A stretch of DNA of 64,000 nucleotides from Candidatus Melainabacteria bacterium (GTDB taxonomy: Bacteria > Cyanobacteriota > Vampirovibrionia > 2-02-FULL-35-15): assembly GCA_016193285.1 (NCBI GenBank), contig JACPSL010000011.1:22645-86644 (forward strand). Reading direction: 5' to 3'. Position 1 is the first letter of the stretch. Each line of letters opens with the position of its first letter. Below are positions 26,647 through 30,453 of this stretch, one piece after another. Made by a program: the position numbers and the translations under genes. A model generated the notes under the pieces. That model was not told the DNA's origin. It saw nothing but the letters and a program-made list of their open reading frames with translations, and made no database searches.

Positions 26647-29600
26647 TTATTTTGCTTTCCGTGACCATGGTGCTTTCCAGGTTGAATCTTTTTTAACTGC
26701 TTCTGGATTAACTACAAGGAAAGGTGCAATAACCTTATTAAAGAAAGCATTATTGTTATTTGGTGCCATATGAGGTAGTGCTATATTTGAAGCAGTTTTT
26801 CCATACCCATTTAATCCAAAGCCAAAACTTTTTTCACCCCCCATTAAGCTATCAAACATTCTTTGTTGATTTTGGTTTAATGATTTGTAATAAGCTGATT
26901 CTCTAAATGGTACTACAACTTGGTGGGGTATAAAGTATAGATTTGTATCTTTACTAAAGTCATTAAATCTCCTTTGTGATTCTGTAGTTGCTATTGTTGG
27001 AGATATTACTATAGGACAGTTAACTTTGCTCACGTTTCGTAATCCATTATATACAGTTGCTAGAGTAGTACCACTTAGTGAATTATCATCTAAAACAACA
27101 ACCATTTTAGGCTTACCCTTGGCATTACGCATTTGTTCTACTCTAGTAATCACTTGTTTAGGATTTATATTGTTTACAATACAATATTGCATAGTAGCTA
27201 AACCAAAGCTTTTGTTTGTTTCAGGAATAAAATATAAAATATCTTTTGGGTCAACTGATTTTTCTTTTGCAATTTCAAGTACTTTAGAATGTTGTTCTTT
27301 TGCTGCTAACGATAATCTTCTTGTACTAAAAATATTTGCATCATGGGCTAATAGTTCAAGAACATATGGTTTAAAATTCCTATGCCCTTCCGGAATTATT
27401 TTTAAGAGGAGTTTATCTAATTCTGTTTCAGTCATTCTTTTTGGAGAAAGTCGGGAAGCTATTTCGTCGGGATTAGAAGCTTTAAAGTCTAAATCTTGTC
27501 TTAAAGTTTGAACTTTATCTACATTAAATCCTAGCTTTTGTAATCTTTGGCGTACCGGTTCATTAATAGCTTGAGCTATTGCTCTATCCATATCTACTGC
27601 ATTTTGAAGATGAATTTCCTCTGCTCTTTTTAAAACCTTGTCTAACTTACCCTTAATATTTTCATGTTGATTGAAGGGGTTTATTCCAGAGAACCATCCT
27701 TCTGGAATAATTAGTAAAACACCTTGCTTTTGTAAAAATTGTGCAAACTCTGGGTCATTCTCAAGACGTTTTAGAGTAGGTTCATCTATTAAGAGTGCTG
27801 GTTTTTTACCGTTACGAGGCAAACCCCAACTTTCTAAATTTTCTAATTTTGTAATTGGTAACTCATTGCTAAAAGTACCTTTCTTTCTGTAGTATAAAAG
27901 GTTAGTAGCTAATGAAGGATGCCTATCAGTATAAATTTCGAAGCTGTCTTGAACCATTCTTAAAAGTTTGTTATTCAAAGAATCCAGACTTTCAATATTC
28001 GCAAATTGAGTTAGTCTTTTTAATGCATTAAGTGCTGGCCCTCGCATTTCAGGAGGATATGAATCTATCATTTTTTTAATTTCAAATGCAGATATTGGTG
28101 CTAGTTGGTCATCAATAACTGCTATTACATCTTTTGTAGTTAGACCAGCTTTACGCACTTCTCCATTTTTACCTATGCGGATGGCGTGCAAAGAACTTAG
28201 AGATTCATCAAGCTGTTTAGCCATGTCTTGCCTTGAATTTGATTCCAAGAATTTGATTAATCTTTCTCTTGCAGTAAATGGATCAAGATTTTCCTTAATC
28301 GCAGCTTCCCTAAAAGCTTCAACAGATGACAATGCCTTGCCACGATCTTTAAGTCTGCTTAGAAGATTCAAAAAATTTTCTCCGTCTTTTAGTAGTTGAT
28401 CAGCTAACGCGTTTTCTATTTCATTAGCTAAGTCACTTAATTTGCCTGTATTAAGTTCTTCTTCAGTACTACTATTTCCTCTTTGTACGATCTGATTAGG
28501 ATTTATTTTATTAGTAGCATAGTTACTACCATAGTTTCTTAAGTCACTTGGAGTAATTCCATTTTGTCTTGCATATCTTATTGCACCAATGTGATCTCCT
28601 TCACTTATTAGTCTTTGCATTTCTCTTGTATGTTGTACACTGGGATTGTTAGGACTTTGTCCTGTTCCTCTTCCGGCTCTTACTTGAAATTCTTCAAGAG
28701 CTCTTAAAGCCACATATTCTCTTGCACTTCTTGTTCTAGTTGTGTTCCCACTACCATCTCTTACATGGACATCTACAGGACTACTTCTATTTGCATGTCT
28801 TAATTCATGTTGAAAACTTTGAAGTGCTTTTTCATCCCCACTTTGCAGTCTTTGGTATGTTTCTTGATCAAGTCTTATTTTTGTAGTTCTGTTTCTAGTT
28901 TTTGGATCTACTACTACTTCTGCTTGTGGTCTTGAACTGCCTGGTAAGTTGTTATCCACTTCAACCACCACACTTCTTTGAGTTTTATTGGTATTAGTAT
29001 GATCAGCACGAGTGTTTCCATTTGCATATTTAAATGCATTACTTTCTCTAATTGCCTGAGGTAGTTGTTCGTGTGGAATTGTAGTAGTTTGTTTAGAAGT
29101 AGCAGATTGAGATGGCTGTTGAGTAGACAGAGGTGCCTTATTATTTCTTTGAGTAGTGGATACACTTCCAACTGTACTTCCTATTGCTGCACCTGAAATT
29201 TCTTGTGCTGCTGCTTCAAAGCTTACTTTACCGTCTCTTGCATATGCTGCACCAATACCAGTTGCTGCTAAGGTTGTTGCTTCAGCTGCTGTTATTCCTG
29301 CTTTTTTAACTATACTTTTTGTAGCCGCTCTCATGGCACTAGCTGTCGCTCCTTGCCCACCTGAAACAAGTCCTACTCCTAGATTAACTGCTCCATGTCC
29401 TATTATTTGTTCTGTTGTTAGTCCTCTTTGTTGTAAAAAATTTTGTCTTAGCTCATCAATTTTTTCTTGAGACATGTTTTTTGTCTGTTCACTATAAAGG
29501 GAATTAAATTCTTGTTCAGCTTTTATCCTAGCTTCTATTGTTTCTTTTGTGTTGACAGTAGTAGACACAGCAGCATTAGTTAAACCAGCAGTGCTGCCTT

Positions 29601-30453
29601 GAACTAGTTTTGTAGCACCGCTTGACAAAGCCTTTCCAGCAACGCCTCCTACTACGTTGCCTGCTCCCATTCCAGTAACAGTACCTACTGAAGCAACAAG
29701 TGAACTCTTTGCATCCTGCATTGTCTGACCTGCTGCATCTGAAGCAGCTTGTCCAATAGTTTTATTTCCATAAGCAACATGAAGTGTTGCTTCTCCAGCG
29801 TTACTTACTGCACCAATAGTAGTTCCTGCTGTTGTTCCAGCTGCAATTGCTCCTGCTGCTACTGCTGCAGTTCCATAACCAGCTGCTGCAATAGCTCCTG
29901 CTGCTCCACCTGTTGCTACTGTTGCTCCTACGATTATTGCTGTATTTCTAGTTACTTTTAAAGCTGTCTCTGTTCTTGAAAGAAACTTATCAGCACTTTC
30001 AATACCTTTGTTAGCTTCTTGTAAATTCTGGATTGCTTGTTTTCCTACTTGTATTGTTTGTTGTCTGGATTCTTGTTGTTTATTTTCTATTAGAGCTTTT
30101 GCTTGGCTAAAGTTACCTTGCTTTACTAGCTCTGTAACTTGTCTTTGAGTTTCTAGAAGTTTATTTCTTTGCTCAGTAAGTTGCTCTCTGGTTCTTCTGT
30201 CATTTTCTAATTGCTTTTTTAATGTAGAAGTTAAACCAGATACTTTTGCCCAAAAGCCACAGTTGTTACATTCTTTTTGTGTGTTTTGTAAGTTCCTGTT
30301 TGCTCCATTTACTCTTTCACCTAAATATTTAATTCTTTCTTTAAGTTTCTCTTGAAGTTTTTCAATTTCTATAGACTGAACAGATGCTTGCTGGGCCGCC
30401 TGCCCTAATAAGGGCTGAGATTGAGTTCCTGCTTGTCTTATCGAGTCAGTCAT
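26647..30453 (-). CDS. giant modular protein: N-terminal coiled coil, Gly/Ala-rich glycine-zipper-like region, polar linker, C-terminal PRTase-like domain
   Basis: 1268-aa uninterrupted ORF. Residues 1-170 are Q/E/K/R-rich heptad-like. Residues ~170-470 are Gly/Ala/Thr/Val stretches (AIIVGATVATGGAAGAIAAAGYGTAAVAAGAIAAGTTAGTTIGAV...). Residues ~470-700 are a polar N/T/R/S-rich linker. The C-terminus carries KMVVVLDDNSLSGTTLATVYNGL, matching the type-I phosphoribosyltransferase PRPP-binding loop (hydrophobic x4-DD-x-x-x-(S/T)G-(G/T)T), preceded by an IPETNKSFGLATMQYCI segment analogous to Apt IAGIEARGFIFGSALAYKM. Confidence 0.7.
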   Translation of the reverse strand: MTDSIRQAGTQSQPLLGQAAQQASVQSIEIEKLQEKLKERIKYLGERVNGANRNLQNTQKECNNCGFWAKVSGLTSTLKKQLENDRRTREQLTEQRNKLLETQRQVTELVKQGNFSQAKALIENKQQESRQQTIQVGKQAIQNLQEANKGIESADKFLSRTETALKVTRNTAIIVGATVATGGAAGAIAAAGYGTAAVAAGAIAAGTTAGTTIGAVSNAGEATLHVAYGNKTIGQAASDAAGQTMQDAKSSLVASVGTVTGMGAGNVVGGVAGKALSSGATKLVQGSTAGLTNAAVSTTVNTKETIEARIKAEQEFNSLYSEQTKNMSQEKIDELRQNFLQQRGLTTEQIIGHGAVNLGVGLVSGGQGATASAMRAATKSIVKKAGITAAEATTLAATGIGAAYARDGKVSFEAAAQEISGAAIGSTVGSVSTTQRNNKAPLSTQQPSQSATSKQTTTIPHEQLPQAIRESNAFKYANGNTRADHTNTNKTQRSVVVEVDNNLPGSSRPQAEVVVDPKTRNRTTKIRLDQETYQRLQSGDEKALQSFQHELRHANRSSPVDVHVRDGSGNTTRTRSAREYVALRALEEFQVRAGRGTGQSPNNPSVQHTREMQRLISEGDHIGAIRYARQNGITPSDLRNYGSNYATNKINPNQIVQRGNSSTEEELNTGKLSDLANEIENALADQLLKDGENFLNLLSRLKDRGKALSSVEAFREAAIKENLDPFTARERLIKFLESNSRQDMAKQLDESLSSLHAIRIGKNGEVRKAGLTTKDVIAVIDDQLAPISAFEIKKMIDSYPPEMRGPALNALKRLTQFANIESLDSLNNKLLRMVQDSFEIYTDRHPSLATNLLYYRKKGTFSNELPITKLENLESWGLPRNGKKPALLIDEPTLKRLENDPEFAQFLQKQGVLLIIPEGWFSGINPFNQHENIKGKLDKVLKRAEEIHLQNAVDMDRAIAQAINEPVRQRLQKLGFNVDKVQTLRQDLDFKASNPDEIASRLSPKRMTETELDKLLLKIIPEGHRNFKPYVLELLAHDANIFSTRRLSLAAKEQHSKVLEIAKEKSVDPKDILYFIPETNKSFGLATMQYCIVNNINPKQVITRVEQMRNAKGKPKMVVVLDDNSLSGTTLATVYNGLRNVSKVNCPIVISPTIATTESQRRFNDFSKDTNLYFIPHQVVVPFRESAYYKSLNQNQQRMFDSLMGGEKSFGFGLNGYGKTASNIALPHMAPNNNNAFFNKVIAPFLVVNPEAVKKDSTWKAPWSRKAK

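What the first reader, a model, noticed from the sequence alone, without database searches (positions are those of the whole stretch)
26647..30453. Giant modular protein with glycine-zipper-like region and C-terminal PRTase-like domain: candidate novel toxin/effector
The protein is 1268 aa and its domain order does not match a single known family. An N-terminal coiled coil of ~170 aa is followed by ~300 aa of Gly/Ala/Thr/Val-rich amphipathic segments (GxxxG/AxxxA-like, e.g. GATVATGGAAGAIAAAGYGTAAVAAGAIAAG). These resemble glycine-zipper membrane-insertion or pore-forming regions. A ~230-aa polar N/T/R/S-rich linker comes next, then a ~570-aa C-terminal globular part. That part ends in a segment with the type-I phosphoribosyltransferase PRPP-binding loop (KMVVVLDDNSLSGTTLATV), preceded by an Apt-like strand (IPETNKSFGLATMQYCI). 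Three context features fit a polymorphic-toxin or effector layout. A 214-aa orphan gene starts 27 nt downstream on the same strand. The locus abuts tRNA-Phe. The genuine housekeeping apt gene (a bona fide PRTase) is the immediate upstream neighbour. A PRTase-fold C-terminal toxin domain on such a scaffold is not, to my knowledge, an established family.
Basis: partly seen in the sequence, partly recalled or inferred. Interest (0 to 1): 0.85.

Follow-up and report, generated by a model that had tools for sequence, protein, structure and literature searches.

The report
Modular PRTase toxin with immunity gene
A Melainabacteria gene encodes a large modular protein whose swappable C-terminal end is a phosphoribosyltransferase-fold enzyme, always paired with the small gene behind it; this looks like a toxin-immunity pair of a kind shared with predatory bacteria but never tested in the lab.

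Summary
The 1268-aa ORF (26647-30453, minus strand) is real.

- **Spread of the module.** It has 322 cluster-level relatives, mostly at the C-terminus of unrelated proteins of 200-4222 aa. Carriers are in Melainabacteria, Myxococcota and Bdellovibrionota, and some bear the eCIS_core (DUF4157) cargo marker.
- **Partner gene.** Relatives of the 214-aa downstream ORF directly follow the module gene in 24 of 77 loci across three phyla.
- **Scaffold.** The N-terminal scaffold occurs in only about 7 proteins, with different C-termini and matching downstream genes.

Verdict: a polymorphic toxin/effector with a cognate immunity-like partner. The toxin domain is already catalogued, and PRTase toxins are known (ShosT). 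The scaffold, the full module, the partner family and the taxonomic pattern appear undescribed. Delivery route and substrate are unknown.

The parts
26647..30453 (-). Whole ORF, 1268 aa: modular toxin/effector (GenBank locus HYY52_02560, Candidatus Melainabacteria MAG)
29950..30453 (-). Residues 1-168: polar N-terminus without a signal-peptide-like hydrophobic stretch, followed by long helices (coiled-coil-like). First part of the family-specific scaffold.
   Evidence: helices 15-63, 74-111, 115-192; pLDDT 67-85 for ~20-150
29119..29949 (-). Residues 169-445: Gly/Ala/Thr/Val-rich part of the scaffold. It includes a bilobed strongly hydrophobic stretch (residues 170-216, nt 29806-29946) and a charged helical insert (residues ~301-345) that is absent in P0002 and P0004. 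Shared by all six family members.
   Evidence: AF2 low confidence
28459..29091 (-). Residues 455-665: conserved HExxH module (HELRH at 549-553 = nt 28795-28809; downstream ALEEF at 585). Putative zincin-like peptidase, either a processing/release domain or a second effector.
   Evidence: No relative found in Pfam, PDB or DUF4157.
28207..28458 (-). Residues 666-749: helical connector, partly shared with P0002, P0004 and P0024
27334..28206 (-). Residues 750-1040: first half of the mobile toxin module. Helical bundle plus a small alpha/beta subdomain with family motifs TQF(G/A)N (residue 814), LLxD (886) and PEGWxxGxNPFN (916).
26674..27333 (-). Residues 1041-1260: type-I PRTase-fold domain (Pfam PRTase-CE). 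Contains the K-S-F motif (residue 1081), the PRPP loop VVVLDDNSLSGTT (residues 1117-1131 = nt 27061-27105) and the family motif HMAPNNNN (residue 1228).
25975..26619 (-). 214-aa partner gene, putative cognate immunity protein. Cytoplasmic, no Pfam family. Starts 27 nt after the toxin stop codon and has its own RBS.
25234..25860 (-). 208-aa orphan ORF between the partner gene and tRNA-Phe. Whether it belongs to the cassette is unknown: no homologue was found in any related locus.

Best explanation
The gene and the ORF behind it form a polymorphic toxin (effector) and immunity pair.

- **Scaffold (inferred role).** The first ~445 residues are a rare, Melainabacteria-type scaffold: long helices followed by Gly-rich hydrophobic helices. 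It most likely anchors in or inserts into a membrane and serves delivery.
- **HExxH module (inferred role).** This conserved module most likely acts as a zincin-type peptidase that processes or releases the cargo. It could instead be a second effector.
- **C-terminal module (family and fold shown, activity inferred).** The ~510-aa C-terminal module is the exchangeable warhead. It consists of an alpha/beta-plus-helical subdomain fused to a type-I phosphoribosyltransferase domain with an intact PRPP-binding loop. By analogy with the PRTase toxin ShosT, it would consume PRPP or attack nucleotides or their glycosidic bonds, and so disrupt nucleotide metabolism in the cell it enters.
- **214-aa protein (association shown, function inferred).** It is made in the producer's cytoplasm and neutralises the warhead.

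Shown here: the modular architecture, the PRTase fold and motifs, the reuse of the module on many unrelated scaffolds, and its conserved pairing with the partner gene. Inferred: toxicity, substrate, neutralisation, peptidase activity, the membrane role of the scaffold, and the export route.
For: 1. **Constant scaffold, variable end.** Residues ~11-441 are shared by all 6 family members, while residues ~800-1268 are unique to the query.
2. **Downstream gene co-varies with the C-terminus.** P0002 and P0004 share a C-terminus and have homologous downstream ORFs (56% identity, E = 2e-49). All other members have unrelated downstream ORFs.
3. **The module is mobile and C-terminal.** It has 322 cluster representatives at E <= 1e-3, and 123 of 149 have 30 or fewer residues after the domain. 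N-terminal extensions range from 0 to about 3200 aa.
4. **Fusion partners include known toxin-delivery or toxin markers.** These include eCIS_core/DUF4157 (6 of 78 scanned) and Ntox3. An AAA ATPase or a separate DUF4157 gene lies directly upstream in L016 and L022.
5. **Partner gene pairing.** Partner-family hits occur in 26 of 77 loci, and in 24 loci the partner gene is immediately downstream of the module gene on the same strand. By taxon: Myxococcota 13/13, Bdellovibrionota 2/3, Melainabacteria/gut MAGs 9/70.
6. **Orphan module fragment plus extra partner gene** in L056 and L072.
7. **PRTase identity.**
   - Pfam PF24390: 34.5 bits against a cutoff of 27.
   - Family profile against PDB: the top 5 hits are all PRTases aligned on the PRPP loop.
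   - AF2: pLDDT 90.7, pTM 0.91.
   - All family-invariant residues are kept in the query.
8. **Functional precedent.** ShosT is a two-Rossmann-domain PRTase toxin whose DD-to-AA mutant loses toxicity (PMC11961720).
9. **Non-syntenic housekeeping contexts** in every family member.
Against: - No secretion or injection machinery, signal peptide or known trafficking domain was found in the protein or in the 64-kb window.
- The scaffold has no structural or sequence relative, and its Gly-rich part is modelled at pLDDT < 50.
- The HExxH module has no detectable relative.
- 61 of 70 Melainabacteria/gut carriers lack the partner gene, so the module may not always need immunity. It may therefore not always be toxic to the producer, or the partner may be an accessory factor.
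- The co-variation on this scaffold rests on a single pair of proteins that are 60% identical overall.
- No experiment exists for any member.
Confidence: 0.7

Rival explanations
1. An intracellular abortive-infection or toxin-antitoxin type defence module. The membrane-associated scaffold senses infection or envelope stress, the PRTase-CE domain depletes nucleotides or PRPP in the producer itself, and the 214-aa protein acts as the antitoxin.
For: - PRTase toxins of this logic exist: ShosTA, PsyrTA and retron effectors.
- There is a weak PADLOC hit to PRTase_III-A, E = 6e-4.
- As I recall, and could not verify here, the Pfam name PRTase-CE comes from a study of nucleotide-targeting immune effectors (Nicastro et al. 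2023; its existence is confirmed only through a reference list).
- No signal peptide and no secretion genes were found nearby.
Against: - Domain swapping on a constant N-terminal scaffold, with unrelated downstream genes.
- The same module sits at the end of giant proteins of 2000-4222 aa and behind eCIS_core/DUF4157 and Ntox3.
- Orphan module/partner arrays are present in related loci.
- There is no hit to ShosT or to DprA-like antitoxins.
- The locus is not in a defence island.
Confidence: 0.12
2. A host- or prey-directed effector, aimed at eukaryotic or prey cells rather than at bacterial competitors. The 214-aa protein would then be a chaperone, activator or loading adaptor, not an immunity protein.
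For: - Carriers are concentrated in lineages that include predatory or host-associated members: Vampirovibrio, Gastranaerophilales, Myxococcota and Bdellovibrionota.
- Fusion partners include annexin, ankyrin and SV2-like pentapeptide domains.
- A sister protein on the same scaffold carries a calpain-like motif.
- Most Melainabacteria carriers have no partner gene.
Against: - The partner is encoded immediately downstream, which is the usual immunity position. It is present in 13/13 Myxococcota loci and is duplicated together with orphan module fragments.
- It is cytoplasmic and has no adaptor-family hit.
- This rival overlaps with the best explanation as far as the warhead is concerned.
Confidence: 0.15
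3. A phage or conjugative-element 'polyvalent' or tape-measure-like protein: coiled coil, hydrophobic Gly-rich segments, a peptidase and an enzymatic domain, injected together with DNA.
For: - A PRTase clade is described in polyvalent proteins of phages and conjugative elements (PMC5512222).
- The general layout recalls tape-measure proteins (my own knowledge).
Against: - No relative of the scaffold or the module was found in 2.9 million viral contigs, in phage or plasmid records or in PHROGs.
- There are no phage or conjugation genes nearby.
- GC3 equals the host background and there is no att repeat at tRNA-Phe.
Confidence: 0.03

Closest known systems
Pfam PF24390 PRTase-CE. I recall it as the nucleotide-targeting conflict effectors of Nicastro, Burroughs, Iyer & Aravind, NAR 2023; the paper is not held in the library, so the attribution is unverified.
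   Same: - Residues 1044-1236 score above the curated cutoff, and 60 of 78 scanned carriers also hit it.
- Type-I PRTase fold with the DD / S-G PRPP loop.
   Different: - Scores are modest (best E about 1e-10 to 1e-12), so this is a peripheral subfamily.
- The conserved unit here is twice as long (~510 aa), with an extra N-terminal subdomain and its own motifs.
- It sits at the C-terminus of long, apparently exported proteins and has a dedicated partner family.
ShosT of the ShosTA toxin-antitoxin system (Pu et al. 2025, PMC11961720)
   Same: - A toxin built from two Rossmann-like domains with a C-terminal PRTase.
- Toxicity depends on the DD pair of the PRPP loop, and ShosT binds PRPP.
   Different: - The ShosA antitoxin is a DprA-like DNA-binding protein that does not bind ShosT, whereas the partner here is an unrelated 214-aa family.
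- ShosT is a stand-alone intracellular toxin, not a module on a large scaffold.
Polymorphic toxin systems in general (CDI/Rhs/LXG/MafB type; definition from my knowledge of Zhang et al. 2012)
   Same: - Constant N-terminus and variable C-terminal toxin.
- Immunity gene immediately downstream that co-varies with the toxin.
- Orphan toxin-tip/immunity cassettes in related loci.
   Different: - None of the known trafficking domains is present (TPS, PAAR, VgrG, Rhs, LXG, WXG, signal peptide).
- The scaffold is a new coiled-coil plus Gly-rich hydrophobic module known from only about 7 sequences.
eCIS-associated toxins carrying DUF4157/eCIS_core (Geller et al. 2021, PMC8213781)
   Same: - The same C-terminal module is carried by proteins with an N-terminal eCIS_core domain and long linkers.
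- An HExxH module precedes the toxin in the query.
   Different: - The query's HExxH module is not detectably DUF4157 (hhalign probability 1.5%).
- There are no eCIS genes in the window.
- A PRTase cargo is not mentioned in the two eCIS toxin surveys I checked.

Membership tests
Pfam PF24390 PRTase-CE / type-I PRTase fold | HMM score above the curated gathering threshold | tested here: met
   34.5 bits against a cutoff of 27, residues 1044-1236
Pfam PF24390 PRTase-CE / type-I PRTase fold | Type-I PRTase alpha/beta fold | tested here: met
   [not shown]
Pfam PF24390 PRTase-CE / type-I PRTase fold | PRPP-binding loop: hydrophobic strand, acidic pair, then S/T-G-x-S/T | tested here: met
   MVVVLDDNSLSGTT at 1117-1130. 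DD and S-G are invariant in the family, and the loop aligns with the PRPP loops of solved PRTases.
Pfam PF24390 PRTase-CE / type-I PRTase fold | Catalytic turnover of PRPP or nucleotides | not testable with these tools
   Needs an enzyme assay
Polymorphic toxin-immunity system | Homologues share the N-terminal region but differ in the C-terminal domain | tested here: met
Polymorphic toxin-immunity system | Small gene immediately downstream that co-varies with the toxin domain | tested here: met
Polymorphic toxin-immunity system | Same toxin domain on unrelated delivery scaffolds | tested here: met
Polymorphic toxin-immunity system | Recognisable secretion or trafficking domain, or a signal peptide | tested here: not met
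   No Pfam or NCBIfam hit in residues 1-750. The N-terminus is polar with no hydrophobic signal-peptide-like stretch. No fold match.
Polymorphic toxin-immunity system | Toxicity of the C-terminal domain and neutralisation by the downstream protein | not testable with these tools
   Needs experiment
eCIS-associated toxin (DUF4157-marked cargo) | DUF4157/eCIS_core domain in the protein or in an adjacent gene | tested here: not met
   No Pfam hit in the query. The HExxH module against a DUF4157 profile gives probability 1.5%. The feature is met in other carriers of the module.
eCIS-associated toxin (DUF4157-marked cargo) | Location at or near an eCIS operon | tested here: not met
   No sheath, tube or baseplate genes among the ORFs scanned in the 64-kb window. 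The rest of the genome was not available.
ShosTA-type PRTase toxin-antitoxin | ShosT-family toxin with a DprA-like antitoxin | tested here: not met
   No ShosT or ShosA model hit in PADLOC. The partner has no DprA-like hit.
Phage/conjugative-element polyvalent protein PRTase (Iyer et al. 2017) | Encoded in a phage, prophage or conjugative element | tested here: not met
Glycine-zipper membrane/pore-forming domains | Match to glycine-zipper families, or a clear (G/A/S)xxx(G/A/S) periodicity on TM helices | tested here: inconclusive
   No Pfam Gly-zipper hit. GxxxG spacing is modestly enriched (z = +2.9), but the small-residue class is not. Only residues 170-216 are strongly hydrophobic. The AF2 model is of low confidence there.
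Zincin metallopeptidase (for residues 455-665) | HExxH on a helix plus a third ligand, on a zincin fold | tested here: inconclusive
   HELRH lies on predicted helix 541-556, with Glu-rich helix 577-595 and a preceding beta-sheet. No sequence or fold match was found.

The most novel reading that the evidence does not exclude
The ~510-aa two-domain PRTase module and its 214-aa partner define a previously uncharacterised class of exported nucleotide- or PRPP-targeting warhead. This class would be used by lineages that include predatory or host-associated bacteria (Vampirovibrio and other Melainabacteria, Myxococcota, Bdellovibrionota). In this Melainabacteria lineage it would be delivered by a new self-inserting scaffold (coiled coil plus glycine-rich helices plus an autoprocessing zincin) that needs no known secretion system. 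The fusion of the partner to BtpA-like TIM barrels in Myxococcota would then point to an enzymatic immunity mechanism that removes a phosphoribosylated product, rather than simple binding.
Probability: 0.2. Interest if true: 0.8.

Novelty: new variant of a known kind. Interest (0 to 1): 0.6.

Why it matters
- **A new class of exported toxin.** Exported toxins that attack nucleotide pools are a recent theme (my knowledge: (p)ppApp synthetases, NADases). PRTase-fold toxins have so far been shown only inside cells, in phage defence (ShosT). If this module is a delivered PRTase warhead, it extends that chemistry to interbacterial or predator-prey conflict.
- **A testable pair.** It gives a concrete toxin and immunity protein to test.
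- **Broader leads.** It points to a family of more than 300 sequence clusters in Melainabacteria, Myxococcota and Bdellovibrionota, a new immunity family, and a scaffold with no recognisable secretion signal. That could bear on how Melainabacteria, including gut Gastranaerophilales and the algal predator Vampirovibrio, deliver effectors.
- **The limit.** Everything functional is still inference.

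Tried and rejected
- **Word-indexed homologue search.** It returned nothing, not even the query's own entry, for the C-terminal 469 aa and for the module alignment. 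This is a tool limitation, because exhaustive HMMER found 322 clusters.
- **PDB search.** The whole protein against PDB gave only a chance SNAP-25 hit.
- **NCBIfam and PHROGs.** Nothing useful.
- **Phage/plasmid tblastn and viral-contig scans.** No match, so the tape-measure and polyvalent-protein readings were rejected.
- **HExxH module as DUF4157.** hhalign probability 1.5%, no PDB sequence hit, and Foldseek on the N-terminal plus middle model found only generic helical proteins at E > 1. The zincin reading stays unproven.
- **Integrated island at tRNA-Phe.** No att-like repeat and host-like GC3.
- **Duplication of apt.** No similarity.
- **Metagenome scan for more scaffold members.** Only one new 1.5-kb fragment.
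- **Partner family.** Only weak PDB hits: Ta0848 at E = 0.006, and protein-kinase hinge/catalytic-loop regions at E = 0.3-1.6. The kinase-like idea is kept only as a lead.
- **Alternative C-terminus of P0004 against PDB.** Spurious hits to designed proteins.
- **Literature.** 'PRTase-CE' is not found in the searchable library, and the paper I believe coined the name is not held.

Full report
**What is there.** The window comes from a low-GC (about 33%) Candidatus Melainabacteria MAG. The ORF is identical to the GenBank hypothetical protein HYY52_02560. ORF 26647..30453 on the minus strand encodes 1268 aa. A 214-aa ORF (25975..26619) starts 27 nt after its stop codon, on the same strand, behind a GGAG ribosome-binding site. 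A further orphan ORF (25234..25860, 208 aa) and tRNA-Phe (25047..25121, plus strand) follow. Upstream lie a bona fide apt gene (NCBIfam E = 2.6e-71) and an ORF whose translation looks like RecJ by eye. The ten largest other ORFs of the window that I scanned are mostly housekeeping: PPDK, AspRS, SecD, a PilC/T2SS-F protein, an S1-domain protein and a histidine kinase. None is a contractile-injection, T6SS or phage gene.

**Anatomy of the protein.** Comparison with the five homologues found (P0002-P0006) divides the protein into modules.

- **Residues 1-168.** A polar N-terminus without a hydrophobic signal-peptide-like stretch, then long helices. AF2 places helices at 15-63, 74-111 and 115-192, with pLDDT 67-85 for roughly residues 20-150.
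- **Residues 169-445.** A Gly/Ala/Thr/Val-rich region with a GATV fraction of 0.60-0.68. Only residues 170-216 are strongly hydrophobic, about two membrane-span lengths. GxxxG spacing is modestly above what composition predicts (11 observed, z = +2.9), and the broader small-residue class is not enriched. AF2 models this part as helices but with pLDDT below 50.
- **Residues 455-665.** It is in fact the best-conserved part of the protein: 73-75% identity with P0002-P0004, and a divergent copy sits further downstream in P0006. It carries HELRH at 549-553 on a predicted helix that is preceded by a beta-sheet and followed by a Glu-rich helix, with pLDDT 65-90.
- **Residues 666-749.** A helical connector.
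- **Residues ~750-1260.** The C-terminal module.

**The C-terminal module.** Pfam places residues 1044-1236 in PF24390 'PRTase-CE' (34.5 bits, cutoff 27). An exhaustive HMMER search of 1.84 billion cluster representatives with residues 931-1268 found 322 proteins at E <= 1e-3 and 169 at E <= 1e-10. Mapping these back shows that the conserved unit is about 510 aa (residues ~750-1260), twice the Pfam domain.

- **Position in carriers.** In 123 of 149 hits, 30 or fewer residues follow the domain. The N-terminal extensions range from none to about 3200 aa.
- **Conserved residues.** The family alignment has few invariant positions: the Ser of a K-S-[FY] motif, the DD pair and the S-G of the PRPP loop, and an M-A-P-x-N-N motif. 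The query keeps all of them: NKSF at 1080, VVVLDDNSLSGTT at 1117, HMAPNNNN at 1228.
- **Match to solved PRTases.** A profile of the family matches solved PRTases on the PRPP loop. The top five hits are all PRTases, though E is only 0.018-0.07.
- **First half of the module.** It is a helical bundle plus a small alpha/beta subdomain. Conserved motifs sit in or just after predicted strands: TQF(G/A)N, LLxD and PEGWxxGxNPFN. No specific structural relative was identified.

The PRTase fold and an intact PRPP loop are therefore confirmed. The neighbouring apt gene is unrelated in sequence (E = 7).

**Who carries the module.** Pfam scans of 78 carriers found PRTase-CE in 60. The N-terminal regions include eCIS_core/DUF4157 (6 proteins, some with two copies), Ntox3, annexin, ankyrin, pentapeptide repeats and NADAR. 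DUF4157 is the HExxH domain reported as a specific marker of cargo toxins of extracellular contractile injection systems, typically N-terminal and separated from the toxin by long linkers (PMC8213781).

In species-representative genomes the module occurs in 77 loci. These come from Melainabacteria (Vampirovibrio chlorellavorus, many Gastranaerophilales), Myxococcota (Kofleriaceae, Haliangiales, Polyangia, Myxococcales) and Bdellovibrionota. These lineages include well-known predators (my knowledge). In L016 an AAA ATPase gene directly precedes a DUF4157-bearing carrier, and in L022 a separate DUF4157 gene does. The module was absent from 2.9 million viral contigs and from the phage and plasmid collections.

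**The partner gene.** tblastn of the 214-aa ORF against the 77 loci hit 10 of them, each time just downstream of the module gene. An iterative profile search raised this to 27 ORFs in 26 loci out of 2838 ORFs searched, and in 24 loci the partner gene lies immediately downstream on the same strand.

- **By taxon** (counting carriers with enough downstream sequence): Myxococcota 13/13, Bdellovibrionota 2/3, Melainabacteria and gut MAGs 9/70. The query belongs to the partnered minority of Melainabacteria carriers.
- **Independence from the scaffold.** None of the carrier loci contains a full copy of the query's N-terminal scaffold. Only L030 has a partial match to query residues 229-429. The pairing therefore belongs to the module, not the scaffold.
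- **Orphan arrays.** L056 shows toxin, partner, a degraded orphan copy of the module, then a second partner gene. L072 has an orphan C-terminal module fragment after the partner.
- **Nature of the partner.** It has no Pfam, NCBIfam, PADLOC or PHROG family. It gives only weak PDB profile hits, including the hinge/catalytic-loop region of protein kinases at E = 0.3-1.6, so its fold is unknown.
- **Fusion in Myxococcota.** There it is fused to, or followed by, a BtpA-like TIM-barrel domain (E = 2e-6 to 8e-5, below Pfam's cutoff).

**The scaffold is itself polymorphic.** All six family members share residues ~11-441, and four share the HExxH module. The C-termini differ.

- P0002 and P0004 share one C-terminus.
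- P0003 has another.
- P0005 has a different HExxH-containing end.
- P0006 has a calpain-like motif (Peptidase_C2, 22.1 bits, just under the cutoff) plus further domains.

Each gene sits in a different housekeeping neighbourhood, and most (five of the six, including the query) are followed by a small same-strand ORF; P0003's nearest downstream ORF is on the opposite strand. The downstream ORFs of P0002 and P0004 are homologous (56% identity, E = 2e-49), and all the others are mutually unrelated. The scaffold is rare: a metagenome scan added only one fragment, there were no viral hits, and there is no structural relative. The cassette has host-like GC3 (0.17-0.20 against 0.199 ± 0.03), and there is no att-like repeat of tRNA-Phe.

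**Interpretation.** The evidence fits a polymorphic toxin/effector with a cognate immunity-like partner. It shows a constant scaffold, exchangeable C-terminal modules, a co-varying downstream gene, the same module on many unrelated and sometimes toxin-marked scaffolds, conserved module-partner adjacency across three phyla, and orphan cassettes.

The mechanism of the warhead is inferred by analogy. ShosT is a two-Rossmann-domain toxin with a C-terminal PRTase. It binds PRPP, disrupts purine metabolism, and loses toxicity when the DD pair is mutated (PMC11961720). As I recall but could not verify, PRTase-CE domains were proposed as nucleotide-targeting effectors (Nicastro et al. 2023, which I saw only as a citation). 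I therefore expect consumption of PRPP or cleavage or modification of nucleotides in the target cytoplasm, with the 214-aa protein protecting the producer.

The roles of the scaffold (membrane insertion or translocation) and of the HExxH module (processing or release, or a second effector) are inferences from composition, motif and predicted topology only. The export route is unknown. There is no signal peptide, no known trafficking domain and no nearby machinery.

**Alternatives.**

- An intracellular abortive-infection or TA module is possible, given the PRTase toxin precedents and a weak PADLOC PRTase_III-A hit at E = 6e-4. It fits poorly with the domain swapping, the giant carriers, the DUF4157 and Ntox3 fusions and the orphan arrays.
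- A prey- or host-directed effector whose partner is a chaperone is compatible with the taxonomic pattern, the eukaryote-like fusion domains and the many partner-less carriers. It differs from the main reading mainly in the target and in the partner's role.
- A phage or conjugative-element origin is not supported.

**Novelty.** The kind of system (a polymorphic toxin with an immunity gene) and the domain family (PF24390) are known, and PRTase toxins are experimentally established. I found no description of the following:

- the coiled-coil/Gly-rich/HExxH scaffold;
- the full ~510-aa two-domain module;
- the partner family and its BtpA fusions;
- the concentration of the module in Melainabacteria, Myxococcota and Bdellovibrionota.

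The two eCIS toxin surveys I checked do not mention PRTase cargo. My literature access was incomplete. I rate this a new variant of a known kind, of moderate to good interest, with all functional claims awaiting experiment.

Noticed in passing
L020 9606-10958, L015 9422-10978, L028 9509-10924, L018 1521-3116; L022 9584-10186 plus 10183-10887: In Myxococcota the partner (214-aa family) is fused to a BtpA-like TIM-barrel domain (Pfam PF03437, E = 2e-6 to 1e-5, below cutoff). In L022 the two are separate adjacent genes. This is a Rosetta-stone link and may indicate that protection involves a phosphosugar-binding enzyme.
   Followed up: partly
L010, L012, L035, L041, L042, L045, L048, L054, L071, L075, L077 (module genes around position 8000): Vampirovibrio and Gastranaerophilales genomes carry tandem duplicates of 550-830-aa module proteins with polar, low-complexity N-termini and no partner gene. 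The hydrophobic-DD motif is retained in 66 of 70 Melainabacteria/gut carriers.
   Followed up: partly
L056 9539-12279; L072 1733-3099: Orphan or degraded copies of the PRTase module follow the partner gene, with a second partner gene in L056. This is the arrangement typical of polymorphic toxin loci.
   Followed up: yes
window 25234-25860 (-) and 24548-25015 (+): Two orphan ORFs (208 and 155 aa) flank tRNA-Phe. Neither has a hit in Pfam, NCBIfam, PADLOC or PHROGs, the 208-aa ORF has no significant PDB hit, and neither has a counterpart in any related locus.
   Followed up: partly
P0006 residues ~590-870 and ~940-1140 (locus L007): A sister protein on the same scaffold carries a calpain-like cysteine-protease motif (Peptidase_C2, 22.1 bits against a cutoff of 23.8) and a divergent copy of the HExxH module placed after it. 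The HExxH module is therefore itself mobile within these proteins.
   Followed up: partly
L004 10852-11517 (downstream of P0005): The downstream ORF of P0005 contains long hydrophobic Gly/Ala-rich stretches (seen by eye in its translation) and may be a membrane protein, unlike the soluble-looking partners of the other members. If so, it would suit a toxin that acts at the envelope.
   Followed up: no
window 9094-10980 (+), 36939-38330 (+), 44403-46001 (-): Three sizeable ORFs (628, 463 and 532 aa) in the window have no Pfam family at E <= 1e-5. They do not match the scaffold, module or partner profiles.
   Followed up: partly
tool behaviour: The word-indexed homologue search returned no hit at all, not even the query's own database entry, for the C-terminal region and for the module alignment. 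Exhaustive HMMER found 322 clusters. Negative results from that tool on this low-GC, Asn/Lys-rich protein should not be trusted.
   Followed up: yes
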